NCBI GenBank assembly: GCA_040954595.2
Contig: CM082583.2
Location: 10,615,656 to 10,679,655, forward strand
Direction of reading: 5' to 3'
Source: Balanoglossus misakiensis
Taxonomy: Eukaryota; Animalia; Hemichordata
Length of the DNA stretch: 64,000 nucleotides
Shown here: in pieces, positions 1 to 44,485 of the stretch
How positions within the stretch are numbered: the first letter of the stretch is position 1
Layout of the letters: the number at the start of each line of letters is the position of its first letter
Program-made: the position numbers and the translations under genes
Notes under the pieces: generated by a model
Databases searched by the model: none
Told to the model about the DNA's origin: nothing
What the model saw: only the letters and a program-made list of their open reading frames with translations

Positions 1-2215
1 AATGTATTAATGGAAGCGAAAAACAACACTGTGCCATTTGAAAGTGTGTTACCATAAAGAATTAGATTTATTTCCATAAAATACGAAACTGGAAGGAGAC
101 ACCTATTGTTTGCACTCTTATAAATAAAGTTTACAATCTTAGAATATTTTCACAGTCAACCAGAAAAATAAGACCCTGTGCGTGATATATCGATCTAAAC
201 TGTAGTAGAAAAACACAGGATGATTCTGCATTACATTACAAAGTGCAGTTTGATCATCCAATACATCTGGAGCTATACAAGTGAAATAATTCTGGTGGTC
301 TACAAAATAAATATTCTTTTTTTTCAGCCTACTTTTTTTTTCTTTTAAAACTTATACATTCAAGAAAGACATTTTTTACTGTCTGTATATGTATGTAAAC
401 CTGTGCTTTTGAACTTGTTGACCTTGATCAAGAAGATTATGACATATATTCTTCATGCCATTATCAGCTGCAACTACCCTCTCTCCCTCCTTATTTCATT
501 GTTCAGTTTGGCTATGTACAATGAGTGCAGTTAATTCAGCAGGCATTCAGAAGGTATTGCAAACGCAAAAAAAAATATTCAAACAAGTAGCAGGTGGGTC
601 GTACAAGGGGGTGATGTGAACTTCAAGGGGGAAAGCCAGTTCGAATTTTCAAAAACATTTTGAAAAAGTATCCAATCAGAAGTGAATTCGCTGGCTACCA
701 GATTTAATACACACCCACTTCCTCTGCCGTTATTGGAAATATGGATGTTCAAAGATTTTCAGTTGACTGGCAGACCTGGTCATTGATTTATTTATCAACA
801 AAAAAATATTTAAATCAAAACAAATGTTTAATATTGTAATCCAGGTGGGGGGAGGTGAATCCAAGTATAGCACAGTATCAGGGAGGCACAACAATACATT
901 GATTGCAAAATTACACAGACTAAAAATATGACAAGGTGCAATAGGAAAATATCATTCAAAGAGAATGCGGAAAAACAAAATGAAAATTGCACATTTCGGG
1001 ACCAAATAAACCAGGCAACATTTAAGTTTTTGAAACAAGTAAATAAAAGGATCAAATAACCTTTCTCCACTGTATATGTTTGAAAGAGATTAAGAAAACT
1101 ACATTGACAAGACTTGTTTAATAAAAAGTAAAACAGAAAGTAAGAAACTCACAGAAAAGATGAATGTTGTACTCCGAATATAAAAAATACAGACTCCTAT
1201 GGGATGAATTTATATTAACATGCAGTATGTAGTAATACATACATATTTACAAATGATTCATACATCTAGAGATATCAAAATACTTCTTGGCAAAAATATA
1301 AATACATGAAAGAAGTTTCAGCCAATGATACCACTCGTTTCAAAATTTTGCTACAAATATGAACCAATCAGGAGGTACATACCTACAAGAGAAAGCAAAG
1401 TCTACTCAAACGAACTTGGATGTATGAGACCTAAGAATGGTGATTATAAAATCAGTCAGTTCAACATGCTTAATCCACGATAAAATACCAATTTCCCTAA
1501 ATAAAAGACTGCATATCAGACTTTGGCCAACAGCAGGGAGTGGGAGAAAACATTACCCATGATTTATTTGAGGCAAAAGAAACTGATTGGGAAAAAATAA
1601 TAATCATTATAGACTGAAAGTTCGTCATCAGAAATGGAATGTGTCCATATAAAAAAATCTTCCTCCTTAAAGAAGTATTCATTCTGTGAATAGCATTGTT
1701 TGGTCAAGAAACCCATGATGTCTTTAAGAAGTACCGGTTAACTAATCTTTGATACTGCACGCTAAACTGATTCTGGAGCTAAATTAGATCATTCTGACTT
1801 CTAGCACAACGACAAAGTTTGAAGACATCATTTGATGTAACAGCAAAAGTCAAGGAAAATCTAAAATTATTTCACTGAAATATTGGTAAAATACTTCTTG
1901 ATGGCTCTAAACATTATTGCTATTGTTTTGTGATGCTATTTTGTTTTTAATCAATAAATGTCTGATTCTGTTATCTGAAATTTATTCAGTGAATACTGAA
2001 TATAAGTATTGTTAAATTGAAATTATTAATGCCATAATTATGCATGCCATCCTTGATTATCAGAAAGCTTTTACATTCAATTGAAACTAAAGCCAATAAT
2101 TAGCATTATTGCATAGGAATACATTTCACTCCTTTTAGCCCAACGTAAAAGAAATCTCTAATTTTAAACAGCACATTGCTTGACTGACCTAAAAAGCAGC
2201 CTCAGTTCTGGACTA

Positions 2216-2272
2216 TTAACCCTTTCACCCCCAGTTCCCTCTTGGGATGAACCATGGTGGTGAAAGGGTTAA
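2216..2272. mobile_element. Tiny TTAA-flanked palindromic MITE-like element in the ATP8B 3' UTR region
   Basis: TTAA-CCCTTTCACC...GGTGAAAGGG-TTAA: terminal inverted repeats with TTAA at both ends (piggyBac/Kolobok-like target). Confidence 0.6.
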
Positions 2273-3092
2273 ATAAATTCAACAAATATTTGCAAACAAA
2301 TTGTGCATTAGCCTCTTCAATATGACTTGTCATGATAATATACATGTAAGTATATCTGCCAAGTCAAACTAAACCACAGACTCCATAATATCCCAGATAT
2401 GTATTTCAGCATTTCGGGACTTGATTGTTTGCCAATCACATTGTAAAAAAGAATGACTGACTGTGAATGATACAGCCTGCCAATAAACTCAAGCAGTCTT
2501 TGTCAAAGGTCGAAGGTTACAGGGCCAACTTGAATAATTCAACTACTGGTTATATATAGGCCTTCAAATTAATGTCTTAGAAACTCATTAGGGCAGTGTT
2601 CCGTTACTGTGTTTAGAGCTCGTCTTCGTTTCCGTCTCCAAAATCTGCATGTATCAATAGGAGACAATATTCACAGTTAACTGGCGAAGGATGGTCCATG
2701 ATCTTAGCATCTTCGTAGAGAAAGATCATAAACATTTATGGGGTTTTCGTTTCTGTATCAGATATCTATTAAATGTACAATAAATTGGAATGTGTTTCCA
2801 TTTACATATTTCTTGGGGCTCACACCAAATTCCTCCATCACCATTGTTTAGGAAATGACAAAATGCACTAGCAAAAGGTGTCAAATTGAAAATATCAAGC
2901 AAAAAAGTTAGATTAGGATTAAATTGGAAAAATTAAGGTATTTTCAAGTAAAAGGAATTTAAGTTAAGTAATTTCATTAAAAAGGGTTATGGTGAAGAAT
3001 ATGTTGATTTGAATTAAATACAGCATGCATGATATTTATAATAAATTTGGCAATGAAAAGCTGCTAGTGACAAATGTATTGCCATGATTTCC

Positions 3093-3212
3093 TTACAGTT
3101 TAGTCACGGGCACATCATCGTGTTGTAGACTCACAGCAGAGTCGTGTACGCTGCCCTCTATAGGTGGACTTGGTGATGGAGAAACTTTGTTCGGTCTGAG
3201 CCCCACCTCCAG
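3093..3212 (-). other. Candidate stop-codon readthrough extension of ATP8B (39 codons plus TAA)
   Basis: After TGA at 3215-3213 the frame stays open: LEVGLRPNKVSPSPSPPIEGSVHDSAVSLQHDDVPVTKL, then TAA at 3095-3093. The stop context is TGA-CTG, and composition turns AT-rich only after the second stop. Confidence 0.6.
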
Positions 3213-6200
3213 TCAGGATTTATGGTTGCTTGTTATACTGTTGGGTCTTTCCTCCAGTGTGGTCTCTTCGTCGCTGAAATCATCCACATCTTCAATGATT
3301 CCATCTTCCAGATTTTTGACCGGGCCATTCTCTTTCACTGCGTCCTCGTCCTCGTGTATTCTGCTCTCTGTTGCGCTGTCTGATTTGCTCTCAGTTCTGC
3401 TGTCTGCTCTGTTCTTGGCCTCCTCGTCCTCTTTGTCCCTCCCCTCCCCTCTCCTCCCCCGCCTCGATCCCATCCTCCCGGACGTGATGAGGGCGCCGTA
3501 GCCCTCTTGGTGCGAAAACGCGTAACTTGATCCCGGCCGCGACGTGGATGGACGTTTCTTGATCTTGGTCAGCTGGACGTCGCTTGCCTTCTGCTTCCCT
3601 CTCTGCTGCCACAGTCGGATTCTGTCGGAAAGGGACGGCGAGACATCCAGGATCAAGGCACGTTTGGCAGCAACTGGGCCGAGCAGGATGACGATCACCA
3701 GAAGGAGACAGAACCAGAACGCAGGCATCCTGACCATCACCGACGCTGTGCCAACATATGTAAATGCTGTCCCAAAGAGTTCATACAACGGCTCAGAGTA
3801 CATGAGGAATATGACTGCCCAGTAAACCAAAATACTGCCCCAAATCACAATATGGTTTAGTACTGTCCAGTAAGCCGTGTCTAAAGCAATCTAAAATTAA
3901 AAAAATAAATTATAAGTTAGTAAGGGAGCAATGATGATAATGATTGACAACACACACACACACATGTACTGTTATATGTACACATACATACGAACATACA
4001 TACATACATACATACATATATCTTATTATGAATGCACACGCATTGTTGTCATAGTTACCCTCAGACTCAGACACTTGTTGGGCACAACACTGTTCATTCA
4101 AGCAAACCATCCAACTGAATAGCATATTGAATTCAACAGGCTGCCTCAGAGGGAACAATTGTAGACTTAAATACTGTGAATGTCTGCCTCAGTCTTATTT
4201 CATGAAAAATTTAAAAGGTTCTTGCATGATGTAAAGAACACGATATGCATCCATTATGTGCTATGAGTGAGCAAACAGCAGACGTCATCATTCATTCATA
4301 CATACATTGGACATACACAAATAAAACATTCTGAGTAAAGTGATACATCCTCGTAAATATTAAATGCATGAAATACATACCTGTAGATTGACGATTGTCA
4401 CCAGCAAAGTCGCAATAGTGCATCCAAACATACTCTGATGGTCTACAACGTCTCCATCTGGGGCAGTGTTCTCTATGTAGGCACCTGCAAGACCAAACAT
4501 ACATCTGTGTGAGTGGAAATCGTTAAAGGGACAAAGTTGCTGAAATTATTTCTCTTAAACTGTTCAAATCTTACAATTTTTGCTTTTATTCGTGGTTACT
4601 ACTATGGTAGTACTTATTGTATATGGTGTAGTTGTACACTGTTTAGTACCTAATATCACTTTCATGTGAGTATGCCACACAAAAATTTGACAGAGAGTCT
4701 TAATCTACACCATCACTGTAAAAAAACCTGACCCAGCATCACGAATCCTGCTGCATCCTAGCCAACACAAAGAGCCTCAATATTAAACTTACCATATGGT
4801 ATGAAGAATAAAACTAAAGATGTCAGGACACCATGCATCACACTCCGACAGAACACCCACAGATTAAAACCCTGGTTTTTCTGACCAGGAACGTAGAGTT
4901 TCGGAAACTTTGTGCAGTTTGGGGCATTGACATCCTGAAATGTTACAAAAGGAAGAGGAAGTTTTTCATCAGAATGAATAAAATAACACAATGCTGTGCT
5001 GTGCTACATTACACCACACTAAAAATGTATCCCAGTATTGGGCTAAAGTAGACAGGCTCATCCAAATACACAAAAGAGATATACATGTACATTCTACCGT
5101 AGATCTAAGTTTGATATATTCCATTATCAAATCAATGAGTTTTATCATAATCACAAAATGGAGAGAGTAAACACTTACCTGATCAAAAATACCCAACGCT
5201 ATGACTGGTAGTGATGTAAATATGATGTTGTACAAAGATATAAAATATTGATCATAGACAGTCTGCAACAAAATCAGAAATACACATGTTCACATGCATC
5301 TGTAATATACCGGTACTTTTTAGGCGCCAGCTGATATAATGATTAATATCACAGAAAGCAGAATGGAATGAGACTTGGAACTCACCTGTGCTGAAAACCC
5401 ACAGAAGAAAGCAAACCAGAAATGACAAAATGTAAATGCAAAATTCTTGTAGAAGAAATATTCCAGAAATTTGCACATCCTCATGTAGGACCATCTCCCA
5501 TGAACCAGCAGCAACCTCTCTAGAAATGTATTCCAAAGTCAAGGTCAAAAGTAAATACTCGGAAAATACTTATTATTCATCACTACTTAAATTAAATAGT
5601 TACTTAATACTCGATTGAAAATATTAGGACAGTAGTAAACTGGAAAGCATTTGGCATTAAAACCCATTAATGAAGAAAAAATGTTATCTCCACATGGACA
5701 GTCGCAGATCAATCAATGCATAAAAGTGTCATTTCTTCGGTTGATTGACAATGAAATTAATTGACTCAGTTATTAAAGTTGACATTAAAATATTAAATGT
5801 TGTATCTTCTTGAATTATTAAAATCTTTTGTAAATTTATGGAAACACTGTATTAAAGTGTCCATTTGAATATGATGTCTGCATTTCTGCAAATTGTGCTG
5901 ATCAGTTTCTTGTAAAGGATATCTAAACTGGGCAAATGAGAAATCGCTGGCTAGAACGGCTTGCATTCCTTCCTGACCACTGATACCAACTCCAATGTGA
6001 GCAGCTAGAAAAAGAAAAGGAAAACAGAAAGATTAAATATTTTGAAATTTAAAATCTAAAATATGGGACCAATTGGAAATGTCACCCAAGAGGGAGGGGG
6101 AAGGGAGGGAGGGAGGGAACAAATATCACATGTGATTTTTCACAATTAGACCAGACATTACTAGTGCATATGAGCGAATAGAGGCAGCAGACACTTTCAA

Positions 6201-9200
6201 CTACATGTCACCATGGCAACTTACCTCTTATCATGCTGACATCATTTGCACCATCTCCGATCGCAAGTGTGACGGCACTTTTGTACTTCTTGACCAACTC
6301 AACCACCATGGCTTTCTGAAGTGGCGTTACACGGCAGCAGATGACAGCTTTGCAGAGACTAGCAGCTTGCAGGAAGTCTTTCTCCATATCTGGCTGTAGC
6401 GCATGCGCCTGTTGAAAATAGTCAGTCATGTTTGGGAACAGCGTTTAGATTAATAAAGTGAATGTAAATTTTGCAGCAATTTCATCTAAAATCTTGGGAA
6501 TTTCCACCTACCAAACTGTGTCCATTGATGACCAGTGCAAACGCATAGATTCCTTCAAACTGATCAGCATCTTTCTTGGTGAAACTGACATCGTCACCCT
6601 CATCTTCATCATCACTATCATCGCTCTTCACACCAATCTTTCCTTTCAAGTCTTCTAAGACTTCATTAAGTTCATGTTGCACTTCGTCCTTCTCTGACCC
6701 CGAGATAATGAAGACTTTGTTCATTTCCTCAGTAAGTAGCTGGCATGAGTAGCCGATATTAATGGCTGTCTCTTGCTTATCACCAGTCAGAACCCAAATC
6801 TTGATATTTGCCTGAATAATGAAACACATGGCACACAAGACTGTCAAAAACTTGACTTGATACACTTTCAATTATGAGAGACACAAGATCACAAAGTAAT
6901 GACTTGATTTGTGGACACTGAAGCCACAAAATCAGAATCATTTCACTTTTGACACCACACATGTGATGACCATCTGCAGACAACTTTCCCCATCATTTAC
7001 GGATGTTCACTCAACTTCCCTATATAAAGGGTACTAGTATTACGGGAACATTGTTTTCCCAGTTTTCCCTGATTTTCATTGAGGGGCGTGGTCAAGATGT
7101 AAACACTGGATGAACACTACTGACCTTGGCTAGGTTTGCAATGACCTCAGGGACTCTATCCTGTAATTTATCTTCAATAGCTGTTGCCCCCAGTAACATC
7201 ATATCTGTTTCGATTTCCTCATACACCTTGGAGACTTTCTCTTCTCTGTTTTCCAATGATGTGCTGTTGAGGAATCAATCAAGCATTAAACTTTAACAGA
7301 AGTATATTTACTGGGGTGTATTATGGACAGAGTAGGAAAATCCATAACGCAGTTGCTGATGTATTTTTTAATAAATAAAAATGGTTCACATTTCTTACTT
7401 GGCAATGTGGTGTTTTCTTTTCCACTCGGCAAAATAACCATCATCTATGTCCTTCATAGCAAGGCACAATGTACGTAAGCCTTCACCTGCAAATTCCTAC
7501 AAATACAGAATACATTAATACTGTTATAGTTTCAAAATTCAGCAATCAGATCTACCTCAAATTCTTGCCATACCACCATGGTTTGGTCCAACTCCATTGT
7601 TTTCAATAGGACCCAAGGTGTTGGACCCTTATACAAGGAAACAGGGGTGAAAGTGTAATGTTGATTTCTTCAGACTTACATTAAGGTGTTCTTGGGTGAC
7701 CTGTTTGATGTTTTTGCAATGAGGACTTAATCTTGGTAAAATGACTGAATCAGCTCCCTTGCAGTAGAGTCGGATTTTGTTGTTGAATCTCAAAATGACG
7801 GACATTCTCTTTCTGACGTTGTTGAAATCCAAGATTGCCAGGAGCTCAAACACCTCTTCATTTCTGTCAACTTCAATGGTGATTGTGCTTGGGGTTCGAG
7901 CCTGCAAAAAGATGAAGTTTGCTCAGTCAGTACGTAACTTCAGTTTAAACGCAATGAAACATTTGAAATCAGCATCTGAAATCTGTCGGCAAAGCATGTA
8001 ATAAAATTTCTTACCCTGAAAACAAATCCAAAATTCCTAGCAGCACCAACTAAAGCTGCCTCATCTGGTGATTGGGCTTGGTATTCCAATTCATCTGAAA
8101 AAAAAAGTTGTTAGAAAAGTTTTGAAACAAGTCCAGCTTCCAATTTTCATTCATAATTATTTGAAGTTAGCAAACATGTATTTCTGTAGACAGCACAAGT
8201 CTTAACGAATTCCTAGATGTAAACTTGACTTTTCCAGAGTGATCTGATATTTCCATGGAACATCCACACAGAATATAACCCTGGAACATCACTAGTTGTA
8301 ATGATGAAACTCACCATCATCATTGTATTCAGCCATGACAGTGTGACACAAAGCCAACAACCTGAAGAACGCCCAGCAGTGCTTGTCGCCTTGGTCAATG
8401 AGTTCCATCAAGGACGGATCGTACCACAGAAACTTCTTGTCATACCAAGCATTGTGCTGAAAACCGATTGGAATGGAATTCTGCAGAAGAAAAGAAAGAA
8501 CCACTGCAATTGGCAAATGTGGTCTGACTATGTTGTGTGTGGATACAGCTCGTGTGTGTCCATGCGTAAGGTTGAAGAGTACGGCACTTAATCATGCTTT
8601 CGATATTTACCTCGTTGATTTCAACAGGATGTCCGTTCTTATCGTACAATTCACCATATTTTCTGCCACCAATGCTGCACTTGTTGAAGGTCATCTTATT
8701 CTGGAATGTCAGACAAAACACAATTCAATGAATACTGTTGCCATGGTATCCTGCAGACACTGCCATATGTCACACAGAACCCTCAGGGTACGGTGATTGT
8801 CTGCTTAATGCGTTTGCATGACACAGCTGTACATTCATACATGACATGACATACGTTTCTGTAATAAACTCAACTATTAGCTCTGTTGTATCCACAGAAA
8901 ATAGATGTGTAAATGTTAGGAACTCTGCTCAGGTCAGGGATATGCAAATTTGCTCTTACTGAGAGAATAAATCATCAACCTGCGTGTCTGTTACTGAAAT
9001 AGCCTTAATGCAATTCCTTAGAAATGCCAAGGAATTGCAAAGTAGGCATCAGGTTAAATTTTGGCACCATACCTGTGTCAATGTTCCGGTTTTGTCTGAG
9101 AATATATATTGAATCTGCCCCAGTTCTTCAGTCAGGGTTGTTGTTCTACATTTAGCCGGTGTGTCTCTATCCTCATCGTACATAGCTTTGTCCCAGTTGA

Positions 9201-12200
9201 TCCAAAAACTCTGGGCCAGTCGAATCATTTCAACTCTGTGGTGTACAGTGATATTAAATTACTCACAACAAACTTGGCAGATGAATTCTTGATCAAAAAA
9301 GTTTAATGATGACTTTTGAATTTGAATTATCTTTTTAGAACAATCAGAGATCCTGACCGACTTACGTGACATAGAGTGATATAGGCACAAATGTATTGAG
9401 AATGATGATATAGGAGACGAAATGCAACCCTGCCACAGACGCTGCATCTTTAGTGTACGTCTCCCACGGCAGGTAAACCTGGAAATACCATCCAGTCGAT
9501 GCCTCCCAGTATCCACAACATATCGCACACACCAAACAGGCACAAAACAGTTGGAAAAATATCTGTAACAGAAAACACAATATCGTGTTACCAGACGTGG
9601 GAGTTAGTAATCTCCTTGACGGAAACACTGCAGGAACTGACCTAATTGAACAGAAAGTTCACATAAACCCAGCCAGGGAATGGTGTCTTAGAGTAAATAT
9701 CAAATGGCAAGAATACAATTATAAAATTTGGTGTTTTGAATGATTGATGTGAACGTTTCTGACCTAACAGCAGGATGTTGAGAATATCTTGCTGATATTG
9801 CTTCCTTTATGCTTTTAATAATTCAAAACTACAGGTTAGGATTACTGAAATTGCAGTTTCTATTCCAGGAAATTTTAATATTAGAACCAGACATATTTGG
9901 TTGCCCGTCCTCATACTCATGCTAACAGGAGTACTGAAGCCCCCAAATCCTGTCACAGATTGCCAGTCAATCTTTCATTGTTAAGAGAGGGGTCAGTATT
10001 AGTGTGCAATCAATCAAACTTACAAATATGACAATCTTGTTCATAAGTTTATCAATGTGTGTCCTCTTGAAGTTTGCCTGTCCACTGTTCTGCATCTGTT
10101 TGCTTTCTTTGCCAGTGTAGATGGTCAGTCCATACATCCATTTGGTGTTCCTTAAAACACAGCCTCGTAGAACCATTTGATCATTGCTGATGGAGAATTT
10201 GTCGTCTCCGCCCCATTTCATGAAGCCATCGCATTTGTCTAGTCGGTTGTTGGGCGGGGCAACGTGAACTTCACCTTGGGAGACAATAGAAAGATAACGT
10301 CTGGTGAGATTCTCACTTAGGAACATATGAAGTCTCGATGAAAAGTTTTAATTTCTGAAGATTGAGTTGTCCAGCGATGATATAAGTTATAATTGATGAC
10401 TTTTCTTTTTGAAATATGATTTCTGAAATATCTTAACTAGCTGCTTAGTACATCTTTCACGCATACACATGTATGTTACCAAAATCATCTGAGCTATCTC
10501 CGTACCAGTATTCACAAACATGTTTTTAGAAATGTTGAATTCATTCAGTAAGTGCAATTCTAGTGTCATAAAGATTTTCTAAACCAATGGCATGCCATAT
10601 ATGACAGACTTCTTTGAGCGCGATATGCTATGGAAGGTAATGGGAACTTGTATATGTACTTACAGTTCAATTCTGACAACTTTTTCAAATCACCTCCAAG
10701 GACAGCTGTCTCAGTTAATGCCTGTCTCACTTTTAAGTTGGTTTCTCTGCAAAAGATGGAGGTAGTAAATGACATTATAAGTAACATAAAACTAAATATG
10801 AACTTGATTATTTTCAACACTTGAGTATATCAGCCACAGTAATTTAATATGCTGTCACAGAAGCCTTTTCACATAAAAATACACATCATAACAGCATTAT
10901 TTCCAAATGACATTCCAATCATAACTGTTTTACATTTATAGACAGCAAGACAAGCTCGTAAAGATACAGTTAGCTGAAAATATCCGATTAGAGAATTTGT
11001 GTTATGTAAAGTACAGTTACACTGTATGTACATGTATGCAACATGGACTTGGGCTACGTACACAAAGTACCGGATTTTATCTGTGGATCATCCAATATGT
11101 TGGACACACCAGAGTACTCATCCATACATTGCTGTATTTTATGAATAACCCATTAGTCTTACGGCTTCAGTAGGAGGATGTGAAGTGTTTCAGAGAAAAG
11201 CATAGCCACAGGGACTAAAGCATGATCATTAAAAAAATATTTACTTGCATTTACTGAAGAGCTAATAGGCATTAGAGAATGCACATGTTTTTCAAATGAT
11301 TTCACTCACTTATAAAAACATACATATGGTCACTTTTTTGTCGCAAAAAAAATTATTCAGAGATGAAATATGAGATAATGTAGTCCTGGCAGGACTGGAA
11401 ATACTTACCCATCTAAATCTGCTGTTTCCACATAGACCAAGCTGTGTGGTTCGCTGCTGGCCAACACCATGCAATCAGCCGGAACCGCCTGGTTCATCTC
11501 GATCTTCAAAATATCCCCAACATGGATCTGCTGCCATTTGCATTTTGTAAGTCTTCAGTGGAAGAACAAATAAAGTATGTTTGAGAATTATTTATACAGA
11601 GATGCGAGATATGGCATGGCAACCGAAGAATGCTGATACAGATAACTGAAGGAACATTTAGTCATTCTGTATGTGTACACTCCCTTTGATAGGTGATTTA
11701 GTGGCAACTCTATAGGTTGCAGCTTTGTGTTCTAATAAGTTCTAAGTATTTTTAAAAATTCCATCCTTATGGTGGAAAGAAAATGTTACTTACACATCCC
11801 CTGTCAGGATTTCAGCTTCCCTGTTGTTCACTATGTTGTCACTTTTATGCCGTTTCTGGAAGAAGAAGATAGTTATCAAAATTTAATTGAATGGAAACAT
11901 TAAAACATCATCATTTTAGGGGGGAAATATAGTAAACATCAAAAGGCGTCGAAAGGGTTAATAATGATAGTTTAATAAAAACAATTGTGCGCTAAACTTA
12001 CGATATCATCATAGCCATCTTTGACTGCACTGACAGTCAGCACAAATACCAGAGGGAGGGCAGTCGTAATGGGGTTTAAAGACGACACCCATTCCAGTAA
12101 CTGCAAGATAAAACGTGAAAATCAATGATACTGGGCTCCAATTTGATTAGAATACACTCATCGCAAATATAGTGAACGGAAATGCAGTAATCCAGGCACA

Positions 12201-15200
12201 ATGAAAATGCCCACACGTGTAGTGTATGACTTAAAGGCACACTGCCGAATTGGGATTAAGAGAGAATATGCATGTCTCACTTAGGGAAGAAGTGTCTGCT
12301 GCAGGTGTGAAGTCTGTCATGCGTGAAATGTCAATTTCTTCCACTGTCAGGGTCTAAACTAGAAGTATAAATATATATCTATATCAAACAGATTTCGTGG
12401 GAGAAGCAATAACCAATAGACATACCTGCAAAATCAGCAGAATTGAAAAGTAGATATTGGCAACTCTCCGGAATTGTTCCAGTAAATTTTTCGGGATAAA
12501 TGTTATCAAATTGTACTTGGAAGTTTTGATATAATTATCCTGTTGGAATAAATGAAAAAGAAATATACATAATTGTTAAACTGAAGGTTACATAATTCTG
12601 GGAAACAAATATTTTCAAGAATATTTAATTGATCTATAACATTTGTTGAAATAGTGAATTCCAGGCTGTCTGTGGGAACCTGATTTACATCATGTAGGAT
12701 TTGGTCATTGCTAGTGTGACGTTGAAAGTGAATTGCCATTCACCCCATATATTGATTCTTGGCAAAGGTGACGACACAAAAATCCATACTACTGTATGGT
12801 ACTTTACATAACAACTTGTATAAACACATATAAACAACGTGTGGATGCTAGGGTACACGGTGGAATCAGATCTGGTTGGACGACAATAGTAAAAATAGCT
12901 AGAGTTAAATTTGTGGATATACCCACATTTATTGATTTTATTAAAGTTGACTTACATGATCTACTACTTTCATTCAAGTAAAAGAAACATGTCCTGACTT
13001 GAAAATAAAATAGAACACTTTCCCTTTTCATTTTCACATACAAATAACTTTCATAATATACTCACAGATATTGAATTTGGGTACTAGTGCAAAATGTACA
13101 AGAATCATCTGCTGTAAGAATATTTTTGACATGTGACAAAATTCCAAATTGAGGAAAAATGTCAAGTACTGGTATACTCACACTATAGCCTTGGTGAATG
13201 CTAAACGACCTGTTGTTCGCATGTACCACTCTTTCAACAAACTCTGAAAAACAGAAGTATGAAAGTCATATTAGAAATTCTATGTGTTGTATAGCTACAG
13301 TATAGTGTACCTGATAGTGAATGTATTATTATATCTTATGTTGGGACTCCCAACTAATGTACGGAAGTGAACGTGACACTACTGTGAGTGTGACAGAAAT
13401 GTGTCTATCATGCTCGAGCCACAAAACCTTAAATGAAACCATGATCACAATACATGTACCTCTGGTCTTATTCAACCCAAGTAGCCTCCTTCCACAGGTA
13501 TACTTGATGAGGAAATTTCTGAGGCAACTTGGAACGACTGTACCCATTGCTACACCTTTTCCTTCATTTATGGGTCTCCGTGAGTCACGCCATTGTTTAA
13601 CATGATACCGGTAAGAGTGTTGACACACTGTCGCGGTGGGCCAGTGGTATGTGTTGCTCCAATGTGTACATGTGTTTACAACTACCTGTATCACGCATGT
13701 TTATTCAGCTTCAAGGTAGCAAAAGGTCAGGAAGTCATAAATGCAGGAAAACATTTCTGCTTTTCGTAGAAAGGCAAAATTATCTTTTCATTTCAGTTCT
13801 AGGCATTCACGAGATATGAAGGGATTAAAATGATAAAAATGATGAAATATGGTTTTCAATATCATTTTTCCCTTCAGCAACTGATGGCTTGATCTGTGAC
13901 CTGAATGTCACATTACCAGAAGCTGTCAAATCCAACAATACAAACACTCTTCAAACACAAACAATTATCCTCATATGAACACTGAGGAATCTTTCATCCA
14001 TCCATAAAATTAGAAATGCCAAAACCAATCTCCCTTCAGCCATGAATATCCAAATCATCTGACAGTCAGTCTCATCTTTCATTCTCATCACTATATCTTG
14101 ATGACTTATCCGGTTATTGAAATATGGAAATAAAAGCAAACCCTGGAGATTCACTGCTGCAGATGTAATTTCATCCCTATTCCCATAACTTGACCTATTT
14201 TGGCCCTATTCAGATATAATAGCCCAATTTCATTGCGTATGTATAAATTCACAAACATCCATTCAAATCACATTCTTGAATTAATCTGCTCCAGAGATCT
14301 GAGTTCACAGTTGATAGTTCATGCTGGCTGTGAGTGTCTTGGTTGCAAGTAAATGTACTGTATTTGACCATGACCTTTGCAAATCTGTACCACTATTAGC
14401 AATGGACCATGACCACACCCACAAATCATAACCTTAGCTAGCAAACATCATCGTAATGAAGCGAAATTGACCTTGGAACATGCACACGTATCGTGACATT
14501 GTTAACCTCTGATAACCTTTGCTGACCTGAAGGTCAACCTGCAAAGATTTAAAAGCTACATTGGCCCTTTAAATTAATTCAATTAATGATGCAGGAGACT
14601 TACAACATGACTGATTGGTTGTCATGGAAACAATGTTGACTCACCAATAACTACTGTAGATTTATTCATAGCGAAGTATATCAAACAACAAAACCACGTA
14701 AGAACTCTAGAAATATACTTGAAATATGTATACAAGTTTTGCGAGACAACGTTTCTGTCACCAGAATCAGTGACTCTTTCATGGACTCAAATGGTCACTT
14801 TCTGTTTCCCTTTTATTTAACCGTCTAGACACAAAACGAAGCTGACCAGGCCAGCCTTTCATTGGAGAATCCTAATGCCAAGAGTTCAAACAATTAGGCT
14901 ATATTCCCTACACTGTGAAAAGTGTACTAACTCAATTTATCGGTGCCACTAACTCAGAAATCCTGGTGTTAAAATACTCTGCCTAAATTGAATGATGTCT
15001 TCCGTGTTTGCGAACATCAAGTTAAGTAAAGCCTCATTAGTGTAGGAAGATCAACACTACAAGGTGAAATTAAATGTACATGTACTGTCCCTTAAAGGCC
15101 TTTTGTAAGACTTCAAAGTTGGTCTTAGCATATATGCAAATCAGAGCGGATGAATTCTGTTGACACGCTTGTTTCAACTCTCAGCCATGAAGATGGCGAT

Positions 15201-27109: not shown

Positions 27110-29747
27110 CTATTGTGAGTAACCCCTGCCACTGCCTTGTCTGGCCATGTACGCACTTCGCATAGGATGGGCTTTGTCAATGACTGGTCTTTCGAGTGCC
27201 TCTTTCAATTTCGCTTGATATTGGGCCTCTGCCTCAAGTCCTTTCAGGTATTCCCTGTACTCCTCGTCCTTCTCCACCTCTTTCCTCCTGATCCCAAAGT
27301 CAAGTTGTCCCTGCAGATCCGACTGGTATTGTAAGTTCTGGGCCTTGATTTTGGCTTCTCTCTCCGCCTCCAGACGTTTGTGTTCCTCGATGGCCGCTAG
27401 CATGGCTTCCTGTTCTCTGCGGGCTTCCTCTTGCAACACTTTGTTTTTCGCCACTGTGAACGGAATAGCATAAAACGATGAACTAAATGGGTGCCTGAGC
27501 CCTCATACTGGTTTGATCCAAATGAATGGAAACATGAATGAAATAGTCAATAACCCATCTATATTATGTTAGAAGCACACATGAGTAAACTATACAACAG
27601 ACTTGTCCCTTCGTTGTAGTAATCAGCAACTGATGGTAGCTTACATTTTTCTTCAAGTTGTTTCTGGCGTTCAATGAGCACTTCTTGCATTAACTTCTTC
27701 CTTGCTTCTCTCTCTCTGGCCCACTGATCCAGTCTCTTCTGCCACTGTTTCTCCACTTCCGCATTGACGACACGGTCCAACTCCTTCTCCCGGAGTTTCT
27801 CCTCTTCCAGCTGCTGGTGCAGGTAATCACGATAGCGGAGTTGTTCTTCGCGCAATTCAAGCTGAGGGGAAAAGAGAGGGGGAAATTGAACATGTCAGTC
27901 TTATTAGATCTGCAATTGTGACCTTAGTGGCATAACTACATTAAACATATTGGATATCAATGCAAACCCTGGCCTAAAACACTATCAAACATGAATCAGT
28001 CTAGAAAGCAACATAAGCCAATGACAGACATCATCATTACTTAGATACTCACTTTTCTTTGCTCTAGTTCCATAGCTTCATTGCGAGATTCTTCCAAGAG
28101 GTTTTCTAAGATCTTCATGTCCAATGCTAATTCTTCTTGGACTTCTTTGGCTTTCTTCTTCATCTTCAGTTTCAATGATCTGTCTAGTTCCTCCCTGGTA
28201 GCAGCCTGCCTGGCTCGTTTCTCTTCCAAGGCACGCTGCTCTTCCAACTGGCGCAGTTTTCGCTGCTCCCTCTGGAGGTGACAAAGAGAGATGGAACAGA
28301 CAATGAATGGATGGAGACAAGACAAATGTGATATGCCCACATGCATGAGCAAAAACAGACTCCTATAGGGTCAGGAAGAGAAAGCTTTTCAGGAGTGACC
28401 ATCTACACTGCACAAGTCTATATGACATTTAATATCCAAATGTCAATCTTTTTTCAAATGAATTATCATACAGGTAACTGCCTGGAATTGTTATGAGCAA
28501 CTTACCAAAAGTTCTGCCTCTTCTTGTATGAGTCTCTTCTCTTCTGCTTTCTGTTGTGCCAATGCTGCTTTCTGCATCTGCAGAGTGTCCAATACATCCT
28601 TATTTCTGGCCATAAGGTCTCTTGCCTCTCTCTCTTCTCTGGCAGCTTTGGCAAGTCTGTCTTGCTCCCACAGATCTGCGTACATTCGTTCCTCTGCTTG
28701 CTTCTGTCTGTCCATGTCTGCCTTGATTTCTAGTTGCTTCATACGCTCTGTGCAGACCTCATCTTGGTGGCGTCGTGACAGCGTGGCACGCAACTCTTCA
28801 CATTCATTTCTTTAAAGAGAAAATTGCACCAGTTGGGTTACCATTTTTCAATATGCAACAAACATGTCTTTAAAGTGAGACATGAAAACAGTACATAACC
28901 ACTGTCCACATGATAATTATCAGTAACAACCTTACCTCCATTTTTGATCCAGTTTTTCTGCAACAATCTGTAATCTTTCCTGCTCTCTCTTTTCTTTCAA
29001 GAACTTGGCTCTTTCTCGCATTTTGGCTTGTCTTTCTAGAACAGTTTCTTGTTTATCTTCCATCTCTTGCAGATACTGCTGTTCTTCTGCAGCTAGTAGT
29101 TCTCTCAATCTGCATAGATACAAGGAGCTATAGTGTGAATGCATGCCAATGTGAGAATATGCTTCTTCTTTTCTGGTGCATGGTAAACAGTAACAGTACT
29201 GGAAACATAACATTTTCCACTGAAATCTACATCACTTTGACCTCTTGTGAAGTATTACCATACCTTTGCCTTCTGTCTTCAAGATTGAATTCTTCTTGCT
29301 GAAGCAGACTTTTAACCCGGCTTTTCACTGTGTTCTGTTGGATACGTTTGTCTGTGATGGTTTCCCAATCATTTTTCAAGTCATACATTTTGTTGTATCG
29401 CACCAAGGACTCAGCTTCTTCTCTCATGTCATCTTGCTTCCGTCGTTCCAGAATCAAATGATCTGGGGGAAACTTACTGGGCATTTTCGCTCGCTAGAAA
29501 AAGAAAACAGACAAATAGATTCTGACTTTATTATTCAGTTTTCATTGGTGGCAATCCTGTGATGCAGTTGATTGTGTACAATTCATGGAAGTTATTATTG
29601 TCATATGCGAGGAATGACATTGAGCCTGTTGTGTCAACAACACTCATCGTGCAAACTGATAAATCGTTGTATACTTACGATTGCGACAGAATGTGGAGTT
29701 GGACCCGTGTATTCACGGGTCCTTCGTTTTGTCTGGTAGGCTAGCAT
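27110..29747 (-). CDS. CFAP53: Cilia- and flagella-associated protein 53 (CCDC11), 7 exons, ~518 aa
   Basis: Exons 29747-29679, 29493-29264, 29109-28936, 28809-28506, 28271-28053, 27861-27645, 27453-27110 (1557 nt, all GT-AG). N-terminus MLAYQTKRRTREYTGPTPHSVAI resembles the CFAP53 GPTP motif. It is followed by a long E/R/K/Q coiled coil (RLRELLAAEE, QKWRNECEELR) and a C-terminal HPMR. Confidence 0.9.
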
Positions 29748-32752: not shown

Positions 32753-35564
32753 ATGATGATGATGATGAAAACTAGAACAAAATTATACACGATTTTGGTT
32801 TTGTGGTGTGTGATATTGCCTGGATCTCTCATTGGTGAGTCGCAAATACATGTACTAATAGCTTTCATTTGCCAACTCTTGGTGGGTTGGTTTTCTTTGC
32901 AGAGCTTAATTTGGTTTCAACCGATTGAATTCGAACTGATTCTATCCATGATGTGTCGAGACTCGCATCATTTTTGCTTTCATACATTTGTGTTGGTTCA
33001 TCGTCGGTTTGACAAAAATAGAACGAGGCAAATGGTCGTCTGTGTGTCAGTGGGTCCATGGAGTGATAGCATGCAGACATATTTGGAATCATGCTTATCA
33101 GTTAGCGTGACAGATATAACCTGGAAACCGCAGCGTCTGGCATTGATTTATGAAAAATGCATGACCGAGGGTCTAACAAAAATTGAGCGATGGCACAAAT
33201 TCTTCAGTAACTCCCTGAGGAACATGTTTGTCCGAGTCCGTTGTTTGGAGAACACTGTTTGGCTGTGATACAGTGGCCAGGGTCTCAGTCGCCTTTTCTG
33301 TTCTGTAGAATCAACTGGTCACGTGATCATTGATACCAGATGTAACATCAAATTACATGTACGTGATACATATCATATCATACCGAGATTGACTCACATA
33401 ACAACATATCGCACAAATAATTCAAATGCTACTGATGATTTGATTATTATCTGTCGAAAAAAGGCGCACCATAATACCATACACAAACAACAGAATGTGT
33501 CTTTTTCTAACATTTCTTTCGTTTATTTTGTGGAGACGGGAGTACCAACACCATGGACAACATACTGGACTATTTTCCCGAAACGGAAGGAGATGGACTG
33601 AACATCATTTGGGCGCACGCCGTCAACAGCCAAGCAGAACTGGATCAATATCTGGCAGGTTCGCACAGATTCACTGAACGGCTGTAATTTTTGGCTATTT
33701 TCCATCATTTTTGTTCTACGCATGGTCATTTGCATTGGTACAGGCCTAATACTTCAACAGGGAACTCGCCGAGGACTTGAGTGTAACCAGACAACGAGAT
33801 TGCGTGTGTTTGTGTGACTTTCGACAGTTTGAGGACGAACTTCTCATTAATTAAAGTTGCCGTAATTCATTCGATATCTCAGGTCAAATCATTTAACATT
33901 GAATCTTATTTGCAAAAATGTCAACTGCTTTGCCTGTCTAAAATAAACTTATAAGGGGTAGAAAATTTGTCACAAAAATCATAGACACTTGAGCGAAAGG
34001 GTCTTTGCAAAAACTGAAGAAAATCGTCATCATCTGATGTCACTAAAAACTTAGAACGCATTGTGGGTGAATTTCAGAAAACGGGCGTTGTACTTTCCAA
34101 TGGCTGTAAATACTCAGAAATGATGAGCAGAATTTCTTCAGGAATTGGTTGGATTTGTTTGTTAGTATCTGTGATTACGTTTTGTACACAGATGACACCA
34201 TGATGCTTGAGGCCGACGTCAGTCCCGAAAACAACACCGGCACGCCAATCATGGCACACCCGCCGGACGTCTACAGTGACATCACCCTGAACGAATGGAT
34301 CAACAAGACCGTGCAAACGGATAAAGGGATGAAGCTTGATTTCAAAGATATCTCTGTCCTCGAAGATTCGCTCGAAATCGTCCAGAGCTACGACAACGAT
34401 ATCCACCAACCGCTGTGGCTCAATGCAGATATAGTCCACGGGCCGAACTCCCCCAAAGAGCCAATACCACCTGTTGAATTCATTTCGACCATTAACAGCG
34501 GGTTTCCAGAAGTTGTTCTGTCTCTCGGTTGGACAACCGATTGGTATGATTCCGCCCCCGACGACATGTACACCTGGACCATGGTGTTCGATAATTTGCA
34601 TTACAGTTATCCGTGTGTGCAACCTGTAACATTTCCCGTCCGTGCAGTGTGGTCTGTGACGTCATGGACCAAGTTTGTAATGTTACTCGGTGTCAGTGAA
34701 GACTTCACCATCACTGTTTGGTCCGGAAGCGCCGATGTCGTCGACGTAGACGGGCTGGTGCAACTTCGACTTCACGGCGATATGGGAAGAATCTACTATG
34801 ACATTCCCGATGCTTTGATGGAGGAGTTCAGAGACGCTTTGGAAGCCTTGCCCACGGTCACTCCTTCCCCAAGACCTGCAGGCTGGGATAAAAACCTGTG
34901 GAGGGCAATAGAATCGGGTACCATCGGTGACAATGTGTACCTGAGTACAGATGTATACGCCGGTATAGTCGGCGCAAACAGCGGTGCTCTGGTTCAAAGC
35001 AGTGACCAGTATAAACCAGGCAGTGGTGGCCTGGACGTCGTGAGAGTGACGGGTCAGGTACAGTTTGTCTCCCGTGCGGACGGCACGCCCCACGCACAGG
35101 GCGACGGAGTGGAAATCCATCTGCGGACGTCGGGTGTCAGCAACCTCAAAGTTGTCCAGGACGGCATTCGCGTTTACATCGGTCGCGACGGCGAAGTGGG
35201 TCTGGAGTTCGTGGCAGCGAGTACTTCTGAGCCGGTTTTGGGACAACTCGATGCCAGTGACTGCTACTCTTTCGACATTTCGGACAGCGGTGAAGATTCA
35301 CCTGTCACCGCAGAAATTCGCCCCACAGAGTGCAGCGATGGGACTGGCTCAGTTCCGGCAAACACCGACCCTGTCACTCTTTCTCTCCAAGGGAACTATG
35401 AGACTGATTACTTTTACATAGTGATGTCTAAAAGTGGTGGTAATATCGATGTTCTACTGGAGGACGTCACTGTTCCGATCCTTTCCTCCGCTAATGTCGT
35501 CGCCACATCTTCTTTCGGTCTCATGGTGGCGCTTCTTGTTACCATCCGAGCCTTGACAACGTAA
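32753..35564 (+). CDS. FAM151/Menorin (DUF2181)-family protein, copy 1, secreted and probably GPI-anchored, ~525 aa
   Basis: Exons 32753-32834 (signal peptide), 33536-33658 (IIWAHAVNS) and 34192-35564 (MMLEADV, PIMAHPP, GMKLDFK, PLWLNADI, LSLGWTT, PVTFPVRA, IYYDIP). Ends in a hydrophobic tail after SS. AATAAA near 35852. Confidence 0.88.
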
Positions 35565-36957: not shown

Positions 36958-39154
36958 ATGGTTTTCCGACTAGTCCGATTGGCGCTGTCATGTGCCGCTT
37001 TCTTCGTCGTAACAAGTAAGTGTCCGGATTTTAAGTACATGTACTTTTGAATGTGCAACGATCCCGGGCTGCTGAGGTTAACGTTGGTCATTTTTGGGAC
37101 GTACTTCAATATGCAAAAGTGTTTAGAAGTACTGTAAGGTCGACTTATGTAAACCATTGATTTTGAAGCTGATGCGTTGGGGGGGGGGGGGGTACTGTGC
37201 ACTTCTACTCAAAAACACCTCAGGGTTTGTGGTCGTGGTAGACAGTTGTATTTGCTATATGAAGTCCGAGTGGTCGACCAAAGCTCTCACAACAACGGTA
37301 GCTTAAATACATCATCCGTGCCAGATGAAAGTGGAATGGAATATGAAAACCCTGACAACGAGGTCACTGATGTATGCCACAAGGACGCTCTGTTTTGCGA
37401 CATATAAAGGGTTAAGAAAGTCCTAAACGTTCGTCATTGCCTCAGCGATTGTCTCCTTGAAAATTATACAATGCACACTATCCAGAAAATGCCTCTCTCA
37501 CCCCCTCTCTCTCTATCTGTCTATCACTCTGTTCTAACATATAGAAGGGAGTACAAACACCATGGTCAATATCTTGGACTTCTACCCCGCTGCCGAAGGA
37601 GATGGACTGAAAATCATCTGGGCGCATGCAGTGAACAGCCAGGCGGATTTAACGACTGCATTAACAGGTGAAAGCTTCGCTCTGTGTGTATTTCTAGTTA
37701 CGTATGTGGTCTATAGCAATATCTTCAGCAAAACTGTGTGTAGGCCTACATGTATTTAGTTTTAATTTTCAATGTCTCCAGATGACACCATGATGTTAGA
37801 GGCCGATGTGAGTCCGGAAGAAAACACAGGCACACCAATCATGGCCCATCCCCCCGATCTTACCAGTGACGTCACTCTGTCGGAGTGGATCAACAGAACC
37901 ACTGAAACAAACAAGGGTATGAAGTTGGACATAAAGTACATCGAAGTTTTGGCAGATGCCCTCGATGTGGTGAAAGAATATGACGACGAGATACACCAGC
38001 CACTGTGGTACAACGCTGATATCGTTGCCGGTCCGAATTCCCCCAAAGAGCCCGTCGATCCGGTCGAGTTCATCTCCACCATAAATGACGTCTACCCAGG
38101 TGCAGTGCTCTCTCTTGGTTGGACGACAGCCTGGGAGGCACAATCACCTGTGCAGTTGTACACGTGGACAATGATTTTCGACAATTTGAATTACAGCTAC
38201 CCGTGTGAACAAGCGGTTACCTTCCCAGTCCGTGCTGTCTGGGCTGCAAGCAGCTGGGACAAGTGGATATGGATGCTTGGCATCAGAGATGACTTCTCCC
38301 TTAGTGTTTGGTCAAGCAGCAGTGACGATGTAGACGTCAACGGGTTGGTTACCTTGCGTCAGAATGGTGACATGAAGAGAATCTATTATGATATTCCTGA
38401 AGCCCAGATGCAAGAATTCAAAGAAGCCCTAGGGAGCGTTTCAGACAGGACTGTAGAGTCGGAAGACGTGCTTGGGTGGGACAAGACACAATGGCACTCC
38501 ATTGAATCAAAGTCGACTGGGGACTATATCTATCTTAGCACCTACGGGGCTGGTCTAGTCGGCCAGAGTCGACGGTCTCTCATCCAAAGCAAAACCAAAT
38601 ACCACATACCATCACGTGATGGAGAAGAACCAGAGATCACCGGAAGAGTTCAGTTCGTCTTTCGGCCCAATCAAGACACCTATACGGATGGTGATGGGAT
38701 TGAAATTTATTTTCACACTTCTGGGATCGACGAGATGAACGCAATCATAGATGGTCTGCGACTGTACATCGGGCGCAACGGGAGAGTTATTTTAGGATTC
38801 GTCGACCAGTTTGGGCCAATTAGTGACGGTGCAGTTTCTGATCAACTTAGCCCAAGCGACTGTTATTCTTTTGACGTAACGAAAGATGGTAGCGAAGTTA
38901 CCGCTAAAGTCCAACCAGTAGAATGCTCTGATGGGACCGGCAGCCTACCCTCCGACTCCGATCCTGTTCACATGTCTCTCGAGATTTCGATTGCTGACGA
39001 CCAGTTTTATGTTGCCATAACTAAGGCGGGTGATCAAATAGATGTACTGCTTGAGGACATAACTTTGCCCTATTCGTCAGCTACTGCCATTGCTCCCTTG
39101 ATCAAAATCCTGTTCTTTGCAGCAGTATTTGCCCTGCGATTCACATCTCTGTAG
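36958..39154 (+). CDS. FAM151/Menorin (DUF2181)-family protein, copy 2, secreted and probably GPI-anchored, ~517 aa
   Basis: Exons 36958-37015 (MVFRLVRLALSCAAFFVVT, phase 1, GTAAGT donor), 37545-37667 (IIWAHAVNS) and 37782-39154. Exons 2 and 3 have the same lengths (123 and 1373 nt) as in copy 1. C-terminal SSATAIAPLIKILFFAAVFALRFTSL. Confidence 0.88.
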
Positions 39155-43789: not shown

Positions 43790-44485
43790 TCATGCAGGTT
43801 TACCAAACACCATTTCAAACTTCTCCCTGTCTGCAATCATGCCATAATTCAGAGTGTAGAACAATGTATGATCTGAACTGTAAGTTTTGAATTTCTTTAA
43901 AACTTCACCAGGTTGGTCTCCTACTTCGTTCAGCGGCTGTACATCGGTTATAGGAACGGAAAAATCGTGTCGCCTTCCCCAGAATGTCAGGTGGGAGACT
44001 CGAAGAGTGTCACAATTCTTGTTGACAGCCATGAGTCCAATGATCCTCCTTAAATAGTAACTCATTGCATAGAGCAGGACAGTTGCTAATACGGCCAGAG
44101 AGATAGAGTAACCAAATGCCTGTTTTGTGATCAGGCCTTCCTTACACAGCATTGCCAGTGGTGGCACCGCAACTAGTGTGATTGCAGTTTGTGCGATTTT
44201 TACCCGAGAGAAACTCCGCAGGGCTCGTATAAATGGCAGTCTGTATATGACTGTGTACTCTGGATCTGCTTGGCTTGGTTTGTCAGTTGCATGACCACGG
44301 CATAGAATCTGCAGTCTTGCACAGGCCACCACATTTGCTGGAGACAATCTTGCTGTGCAACATATCTGTGGTGATTTCATTGCTGCTAAAAATATCTTTC
44401 TTGTGGATTGTGTGACGACAGGCCTTAAGGAAAGCAGAGCTTGGTTCCAGTATGATGGCAAGCCTCGTAAACTAACACGAATCAT
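43790..44485 (-). CDS. TMEM186: Transmembrane protein 186 (mitochondrial), 231 aa
   Basis: Basic presequence-like N-terminus, YTVIYRLPFIRALRSFSRVKIAQTAIT, two hydrophobic segments and LRVSHLTFWGRRHD. An acceptor near 44508 and a donor near 44690 define an upstream non-coding exon. Confidence 0.88.
   Translation of the reverse strand: MIRVSLRGLPSYWNQALLSLRPVVTQSTRKIFLAAMKSPQICCTARLSPANVVACARLQILCRGHATDKPSQADPEYTVIYRLPFIRALRSFSRVKIAQTAITLVAVPPLAMLCKEGLITKQAFGYSISLAVLATVLLYAMSYYLRRIIGLMAVNKNCDTLRVSHLTFWGRRHDFSVPITDVQPLNEVGDQPGEVLKKFKTYSSDHTLFYTLNYGMIADREKFEMVFGKPA

What the first reader, a model, noticed from the sequence alone, without database searches (positions are those of the whole stretch)
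3093..3215. Likely programmed UGA readthrough giving the ATP8B flippase a hidden C-terminal tail (NKVSP ... VTKL)
Seen: the first stop is TGA followed by CTGG. The frame then stays open for 39 codons of coding-like composition (LEVGLRPNKVSPSPSPPIEGSVHDSAVSLQHDDVPVTKL) to a TAA, after which the sequence becomes AT-rich UTR. Established: UGA-C(U) is the leakiest stop context in animals, x-T-x-L at a C-terminus is a class I PDZ-binding motif, and VxP motifs occur in ciliary targeting signals of membrane-protein tails. The short form ends in an uninformative NHKS. Inference: readthrough would switch the flippase between an untagged isoform (~1233 aa) and a PDZ-anchored or cilium-targeted isoform (~1273 aa). 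I do not know of this being described for an ATP8B. A nonsense polymorphism or base-call error at the TGA is the main alternative.
Basis: partly seen in the sequence, partly recalled or inferred. Interest (0 to 1): 0.85.

Follow-up and report, generated by a model that had tools for sequence, protein, structure and literature searches.

The report
Leaky stop extends acorn-worm lipid flippase
In an acorn worm, the gene for the membrane lipid flippase ATP8B has an old, leak-prone stop codon followed by 39 more protein-like codons, so ribosomes likely read through now and then and make a minor form with an extra tail predicted to dock on scaffold proteins; translation of the tail is untested.

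Summary
In detail: minus strand, TGA at 3215-3213 followed by CTGG, 39 sense codons, TAA at 3095-3093. The gene is an acorn-worm ATP8B, 91.5% identical to Ptychodera flava. P. flava and Glandiceps proteins end at the aligned residue, so the stop is old, not an error or a private nonsense allele. The second ORF is 53% GC against 29% just after TAA. Only 2-3 of 3,855 non-coding stops have an open, equally coding-like frame behind them, and the GC step falls at the second stop. Splicing, SECIS, antisense coding and RNA structure found no support. Against: much of the score is base composition, the frame-specific signal is modest (12-99 of 1,000 shuffles), the context is CUG rather than the canonical CUAG, and no orthologous DNA, RNA or peptide evidence could be obtained. 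Functional readthrough: about 0.65. PDZ docking is plausible; ciliary targeting is weak. This is a new candidate of a known kind (OPRK1/OPRL1/AQP4-like). No earlier scan note on it was found.

The parts
3216..13243 (-). ATP8B-type P4-ATPase (phospholipid flippase) coding region, 23 modelled exons; the first exon (about 6 codons) was not located
   Evidence: 1,227 aa, one stop, 1118/1222 identical to P. flava XP_070541924 and 978/1218 to Glandiceps XP_077989510; motifs DGET, PISL, DKTGT, TGD, GDGAND and YAFSH present
3216..3890 (-). Last coding exon: final membrane helices, YAFSH motif, acidic linker and the conserved end [16 protein letters not shown]
   Evidence: aligns to human ATP8B1 1088-1227, E 4e-26; PF16212
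3213..3215 (-). First stop codon TGA, context TCC-TGA-CTG-G
   Evidence: orthologous proteins end at the aligned residue
3096..3212 (-). Second ORF, 39 codons, GC 0.53 (GC1 0.69, GC2 0.44, GC3 0.46), Pro/Ser-rich, contains KVSPS, ends T-K-L
3093..3095 (-). Second stop TAA; the GC step lies within about 10 nt of it in the wide scan
   Evidence: best breakpoint 3102; log-likelihood -520.6 at TAA versus -530.2 at TGA
1986..3092 (-). AT-rich, highly polymorphic 3' UTR; first AATAAA at 1986 (end of the transcript inferred)

Best explanation
The acorn-worm ATP8B gene has an old TGA stop followed by 39 open, codon-like triplets, and ribosomes likely read through that leaky UGA-CUG stop in a few percent of rounds, which would yield a minor flippase form 40 residues longer that ends in a predicted class I PDZ-binding motif (T-K-L). 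Shown: the sequence layout, the conserved stop position at protein level, and the coding-like composition that ends at the second stop. Inferred: a near-cognate tRNA (Trp, Cys or Arg; recalled) outcompetes eRF1 at UGA-C with no RNA structure needed. Mammalian reporters give up to about 3% for UGA-C contexts (PMC5829715). Inferred: the tail starts about 100 residues after the YAFSH motif (autoinhibitory in ATP8B1; recalled), so it would change where the flippase sits and what it binds (a PDZ scaffold at an apical or sensory membrane) rather than its catalysis. The PDZ role on its own is about 0.4 and ciliary targeting about 0.15.
For: The stop position is shared with P. flava and with Glandiceps, which belong to different families. 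PMC11175523 (passages) puts the Ptychodera-Schizocardium split at more than 370 mya. A neutral relic would probably have decayed, given about 2% listed differences plus indels between haplotypes in this UTR. The second ORF scores at the 57th-73rd percentile of 83 held-out coding windows, and both other frames score negative and contain stops. Only 2-3 of 3,855 non-coding stops have an open, equally scoring frame. The GC step fits the second stop about 10 log-likelihood units better than the first. The five other genes in the window have 0.27-0.44 GC after their stops, second ORFs of 2-23 codons, and none ends in TGA. PMC5829715 calls UGACUG a 'poor termination sequence element' (passages). 31 of 42 non-vertebrate ortholog tails end in L/V/I; the extended end does too, the short end does not (the rows are related, not independent). 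Precedent: the OPRK1 and OPRL1 extensions carry class I PDZ patterns (PMC4999894 Table 1).
Against: No DNA downstream of any acorn-worm orthologue was obtained, so neither the identity of their stop codons nor conservation of the second ORF was tested. Much of the coding score is base composition: 14-22% of open shuffles reach it. The frame-specific margin is reached by 12-99 of 1,000 open shuffles over 8 settings. Non-coding controls are mostly introns and intergenic DNA, and only 5 proximal UTRs were available. A narrower scan put the best GC breakpoint at 3048, about 45 nt past TAA. The context lacks the A of UGA-CUAG, which PMC4132726 found in all four candidates it confirmed (passages). 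Readthrough is rare outside Pancrustacea (PMC5100048 section 17). The extension aligns to none of 37 ortholog tails better than shuffles after multiple testing (best 0.037), and its end fits an ortholog-end profile only as well as 69 of 1,909 random ends. The short end is itself strongly conserved (14 of 16 columns), so it probably has its own function.
Confidence: 0.65

Rival explanations
1. Ordinary proximal 3' UTR. The GC-rich last exon simply tapers off about 110 nt past the stop (or an RNA-level element sits there). The open frame and the TKL end are chance, and any leak at UGA-C is unselected noise.
For: 10.5% of non-coding stops have 39 open codons. 3.5% of random ORF ends match [ST]x[LVI]. 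The frame-specific signal is only modest. The short end is conserved. The prior for readthrough outside insects and crustaceans is low.
Against: 0 of 687 non-coding windows are as GC-rich. The joint open-and-coding-like rate is 2-3 of 3,855. The GC step sits near the second stop. TGA-C, the open frame, the codon-position bias and the hydrophobic end all coincide. No significant RNA fold was found (z no lower than -1.4).
Confidence: 0.24
2. Decaying relic. The 39 codons were once the ordinary end of the protein, or a former readthrough tail, and are no longer under selection.
For: Most non-vertebrate ATP8B tails end in a hydrophobic residue, as the extension does (31 of 42).
Against: The stop position predates the Ptychoderidae-Spengelidae split. 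Unselected DNA in this polymorphic UTR would be unlikely to keep codon bias and an open frame for that long.
Confidence: 0.04
3. The tail is made by alternative splicing that skips the TGA, or the GC-rich stretch belongs to an exon on the opposite strand.
For: A plus-strand acceptor-like site lies at 3099 (score 6.0) and a plus-strand frame 3088-3498 is open.
Against: Sense-strand AG sites in the second ORF score at most 0.3, against 1.5-14.4 for real acceptors. Plus-strand sites of 6.0 or more occur about 2 per kb by chance, the matching donor scores 1.0, and no coding-like upstream exon was found. The antisense frame sharing third positions scores below the sense frame at all three model orders. 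It has no Pfam hit. The splice matrices were built from only 21-22 sites.
Confidence: 0.04
4. Another recoding route at the same stop: selenocysteine, A-to-I editing of UGA to UGG, or an antizyme-type +1 frameshift at TCC-TGA-C giving an 18-residue tail.
For: TCC-TGA matches the antizyme shift site (recalled; PMC5829715 mentions frameshifting at UGAC in antizyme).
Against: No SECIS family among the 4 weak Rfam matches in 1-4000 (SECISearch3 was not available). No stable duplex over the stop (best -27.4 against null -27.0 +/- 2.4). The +1 frame closes after 18 codons and scores negative. Glandiceps has Ala, not Ser, before its stop.
Confidence: 0.03

Closest known systems
Vertebrate UGA-CUAG programmed readthrough of membrane proteins: OPRK1, OPRL1, AQP4 (AQP4ex) (PMC4132726; PMC4999894; PMC6444679)
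   Same: UGA followed by CU, a short extension (about 29 residues there, 40 here) on a multi-pass membrane protein, and a new C-terminal PDZ-type end. AQP4ex anchors the channel at astrocyte end-feet (title/abstract listing).
   Different: The context here is CUG-G, not CUA-G. The host is a hemichordate and the protein a P4-ATPase. Conservation of the extension and the readthrough rate are not shown.
Abundant stop-codon readthrough in Drosophila and Anopheles (PMC5100048; PMC13278127)
   Same: UGA-C context and a disordered-type, Pro/Ser-rich, motif-bearing second ORF with intermediate-to-full coding score.
   Different: Described as abundant only in Pancrustacea. Drosophila ATP8B appears in the 2026 list only as tier 3 (TAA stop, 96-nt extension, not conserved), a tier its authors treat as a negative set, so it is not a precedent for this tail.
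ATP8B subfamily of P4-ATPases (human ATP8B1, PDB 7PY4/8OX7; Drosophila dATP8B)
   Same: Catalytic motifs and the YAFSH tail motif are present. dATP8B sits in the outer dendrites of olfactory neurons and ATP8B1 in apical membranes and stereocilia (PMC3961175 passages).
   Different: Longer acidic tail, ending in a conserved polar end and, beyond the stop, a candidate optional module.
Readthrough-generated PTS1 in LDHBx and MDH1x (PMC4359377)
   Same: Readthrough appends a targeting tripeptide; TKL resembles SKL.
   Different: Those are soluble enzymes with UGA-CUA. PTS1 matrix import is not expected for a multi-pass membrane pump (recalled).

Membership tests
Programmed (functional) stop-codon readthrough | Leaky first stop (UGA with C at +4) | tested here: met
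   TGA-CTG-G; UGACUG called a poor terminator in PMC5829715
Programmed (functional) stop-codon readthrough | First stop is old, not a recent nonsense change or error | tested here: met
   P. flava and Glandiceps proteins end at the aligned residue; the identity of their stop codons was not seen
Programmed (functional) stop-codon readthrough | Second ORF has single-genome coding character in frame 0 | tested here: met
   the frame-specific part is modest (12-99 of 1,000 shuffles)
Programmed (functional) stop-codon readthrough | Cross-species protein-coding conservation of the second ORF (PhyloCSF, dN/dS) | not testable with these tools
   No orthologous acorn-worm DNA was reachable
Programmed (functional) stop-codon readthrough | Not explained by splicing, downstream ATG, antisense coding or SECIS (criteria of PMC5100048 section 22) | tested here: met
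   no Met in the second ORF; simple matrices and Rfam stood in for MaxEntScan and SECISearch3
Programmed (functional) stop-codon readthrough | Translation past the stop observed (ribosome profiling, peptides, reporter) | not testable with these tools
   No such data were accessible
Vertebrate UGA-CUAG class | CUAG immediately 3' of UGA | tested here: not met
   CTGG versus CUAG (PMC4132726)
Structure-stimulated readthrough | Stable 3' stem-loop or pseudoknot | tested here: not met
   z 0.56 and 0.33; best of 36 local windows z -1.4; pseudoknots were not modelled
Selenoprotein | SECIS in the 3' UTR | tested here: not met
   Rfam scan of 1-4000 at E up to 5 gave 4 weak unrelated matches
Class I PDZ ligand | C-terminal [ST]-x-[LVI] | tested here: met
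   T-K-L; pattern recalled; chance 67 of 1,909; binding not tested
(K/R/Q)VxPx ciliary targeting signal | Motif in the cytosolic tail, shown necessary for ciliary delivery | tested here: inconclusive
   KVSPS fits the pattern named in the abstract of PMC3172256 (listing), but it is internal and only 3 of 42 ortholog tails have [KR]VxP
ATP8B P4-ATPase | DGET, PISL, DKTGT, GDGAND and YAFSH motifs; closest relatives are ATP8B | tested here: met
   the tree held no ATP8A outgroup

The most novel reading that the evidence does not exclude
An ancient readthrough, older than the split of acorn-worm families, keeps the ancestral hydrophobic PDZ-type end of ATP8B as an optional module behind a newer conserved end. 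A lipid flippase would then have two selected C-termini switched at the ribosome: the first programmed readthrough in a hemichordate and in a P4-ATPase, hinting that functional readthrough in invertebrate deuterostomes has been overlooked.
Probability: 0.3. Interest if true: 0.72.

Novelty: new member of a known kind. Interest (0 to 1): 0.5.

Why it matters
Functional readthrough in animals is documented mainly in insects, crustaceans and a few vertebrate genes; my searches found no paper combining it with hemichordates or Saccoglossus. A confirmed case would put the mechanism in a third deuterostome phylum. It would also give a P4-ATPase a translational switch for localisation, in a family whose members work at apical membranes, stereocilia and sensory dendrites. 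Current RefSeq models would lack the isoform. The claim can be settled cheaply with public P. flava and Glandiceps genomes. The kind of mechanism is known, so the surprise is moderate.

Tried and rejected
No whole genome is held for this window, so other readthrough candidates in the species could not be counted. Sequencing runs: 3 listed, one sample, no RNA holder listed. Haplotype test: X2 contig 2724-3438 shows 11 listed substitutions and 3 indels, all in 2724-3042, and none across the extension. I rejected this as evidence: 183 of 1,122 UTR windows of 123 nt also lack a listed difference, and other contigs run 487-602 nt, introns included, with none, as collapsed mosaics would. Homologue searches for the tail found nothing: no candidate among proteins of 27-88 aa, none of 192 candidates of 110-350 aa, and one unrelated repeat protein in the 1.84-billion search. 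That search also missed the known acorn-worm orthologues, so it is uninformative. Metagenome loci: 21 distant ATP8B loci, none acorn worm. One (L014) has TGA-C and a 62-codon second ORF, but its GC falls from 0.68 to 0.44; no general ATP8B readthrough is seen. RNA structure, SECIS, splicing and antisense exon: see rivals. Two automated exon-chaining scripts failed until the AT-AC intron was recognised. No Atlas look-alike search of the tail was obtained, so feature-level look-alikes are unexamined. Literature: 'stop codon readthrough'+'ATP8B' gave 3 papers, of which I opened one (TOGA2; unrelated passages) and saw two as listings. 0 papers for CG14741, hemichordate, Saccoglossus and 'UGA CUG'+'UGA CUA'. 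In PMC5100048, 2 supplements had no ATP8B identifier, but file 1 could not be searched and may bear on novelty.

Full report
Observation. The feature is on the minus strand. The last exon of a P4-ATPase runs 3890-3216 and ends AAA TCC TGA CTG G. After the TGA (3215-3213) come 39 sense codons without Met, ending VPVTKL, and then TAA at 3095-3093. A 23-exon model translates to 1,227 residues with one stop, once a U12-type AT-AC intron is allowed.

Identity of the gene and host. Of 64 hits among 1,884 candidates, the best are ATP8B-type proteins of Ptychodera flava (89% over 85% of the query) and Glandiceps talaboti (65% over 85%). Full-length identity is 1118/1222 and 978/1218. A 12-row tree groups the window protein with P. 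flava, then Glandiceps, then Acanthaster, each with starred support; it had no ATP8A outgroup. The exon aligns to human ATP8B1 structures through the YAFSH motif. The host is therefore an acorn worm close to Ptychodera.

The stop is old. Both orthologous proteins end at the aligned residue (NHKS, NHKA); both P. flava isoforms share that end. They belong to Ptychoderidae and Spengelidae, families whose common ancestor PMC11175523 places more than 370 mya (passages). A contig of run X2 lists no other letter at the TGA, though it may come from the same sample as the window. I saw only protein ends, so I do not know that the orthologous stops are TGA. The 16 columns before the stop are identical in 14 across the three species, against 21 of 69 in the preceding linker. 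The short end is under constraint, either as a functional terminus or as context for the stop.

Is the second ORF coding-like? GC is 0.53 (positions 0.69, 0.44, 0.46) and falls to 0.29 in the next 117 nt; 0 of 687 overlapping intron/UTR windows reach 0.53. The five other genes in the window show 0.27-0.44 after their stops, second ORFs of 2-23 codons and no TGA. Three-periodic Markov models trained on 10,251 coding bases of the window place the ORF at the 57th-73rd percentile of 83 held-out coding windows. Both other frames are negative and closed. Of 3,855 non-coding stops, 406 are followed by 39 open codons and 2-3 of those score as high. A single GC breakpoint fits best at 3102; the second stop fits about 10 log-likelihood units better than the first. 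A narrower scan peaks at 3048 with the same ranking of the two stops. Against this, 14-22% of open shuffles reach the absolute score, and 12-99 of 1,000 reach the frame margin over eight settings. Most of the signal is thus composition that persists to the second stop, with a modest frame-specific part.

Alternatives. I applied the exclusion list of PMC5100048 (section 22 read). Sense acceptors in the ORF score at most 0.3 against 1.5-14.4 for real ones. There is no in-frame ATG. A plus-strand acceptor-like site at 3099 scores 6.0, a level met about twice per kb by chance; it has no good donor and no coding-like upstream exon, and the antisense frame scores below the sense frame. Rfam finds no SECIS in 1-4000. 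No fold exceeds shuffles. The site reads TCC-TGA-C like the antizyme shift site (recalled), but the +1 frame closes after 18 codons and scores negative.

What could not be shown. No orthologous DNA downstream of the stop was reachable, so the decisive conservation test is open. The lack of haplotype differences across the extension is not evidence: 183 of 1,122 UTR windows are equally clean, and collapsed contigs run clean through introns. Among 21 distant ATP8B loci there is no general readthrough pattern. The extension aligns to none of 37 ortholog tails.

Mechanism. PMC5829715 (passages) calls UGACUG a poor terminator and reports up to about 3% readthrough for some UGA-C contexts in mammalian cells. 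PMC4132726 and PMC4359377 (passages) show that the strongest motif is UGA-CUA(G), which this site misses by one base. I infer sequence-driven leak by a near-cognate tRNA, giving a minor isoform. The tail begins about 100 residues after YAFSH (position 1125 of 1,227), so a role in location or binding is more likely than one in catalysis. T-K-L fits the class I PDZ pattern (recalled; chance 67 of 1,909). 31 of 42 related non-vertebrate tails end in L, V or I, whereas the short acorn-worm ends do not, but a profile of those ends ranks VPVTKL no better than 69 of 1,909 random ends. KVSPS fits the polycystin-1 (K/R/Q)VxPx signal (abstract in listing), and dATP8B sits in sensory outer dendrites (PMC3961175 passages). 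However, the motif is internal and present in 3 of 42 tails, so I rate ciliary targeting low.

Comparison and novelty. It works like the vertebrate OPRK1/OPRL1/AQP4 cases, where readthrough adds PDZ-type ends (PMC4999894 Table 1 passage), but it is not a member of the strict UGA-CUAG class. Abundant readthrough is reported only for Pancrustacea (PMC5100048 section 17). Drosophila ATP8B is listed in a 2026 preprint as tier 3 with a TAA stop (supplement row), a tier treated as a negative set (passages). Searches for readthrough with ATP8B, CG14741, hemichordate or Saccoglossus found no description; one supplement of PMC5100048 could not be searched. The scan's own index held no such note.

Verdict. 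Functional readthrough is about 0.65, ordinary GC-rich UTR about 0.24, and the others about 0.11 together. It is a new candidate member of a known kind; interest 0.5, rising to about 0.7 if the tail proves conserved across acorn-worm families.

Noticed in passing
window 5528-5922, minus strand: U12-type AT-AC intron in ATP8B (5' ATATCCTTT, 3' ...AATAC), splitting an Arg codon; it is required for an intact reading frame.
   Followed up: partly
window 2217-2271: Short inverted-repeat element in the 3' UTR with very high summed read depth, MITE-like; a related high-copy element lies near 7570-7635 in an intron.
   Followed up: no
window 3218-3212, minus strand: The stop site reads TCC-TGA-C, the antizyme +1 shift sequence (recalled); the +1 frame would give 18 residues and scores as non-coding.
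   Followed up: yes
window 3216-3263, minus strand: The 16 residues before the first stop are far more conserved among three acorn worms than the linker (14/16 versus 21/69) and include an RxxS-type phosphorylation pattern (recalled).
   Followed up: partly
window 34110-35561 and 37766-39151, plus strand: Tandem menorin/FAM151-like genes, each with a long single exon and a hydrophobic C-terminus.
   Followed up: no
window 27113-29231 (minus), 40558-42333 (plus), 43793-44566 (minus), 45511-46551 (plus): Neighbours: a TPH-domain ciliary coiled-coil gene, a sulfotransferase-2 gene, a TMEM70/186-family gene and a PALP (serine racemase/dehydratase-like) gene.
   Followed up: no
L014, after the ATP8B-like stop: A distant ATP8B locus also has TGA-C and a 62-codon second ORF, but its GC drops from 0.68 to 0.44.
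   Followed up: no
L015-L019 tails; P0010, P0013, P0019: Some distant ATP8B tails carry NVVxP (3 of 4 distinct loci examined among L015-L019) or RVxP (3 mite proteins), loosely like NKVSP; post hoc, with no alignment support.
   Followed up: partly
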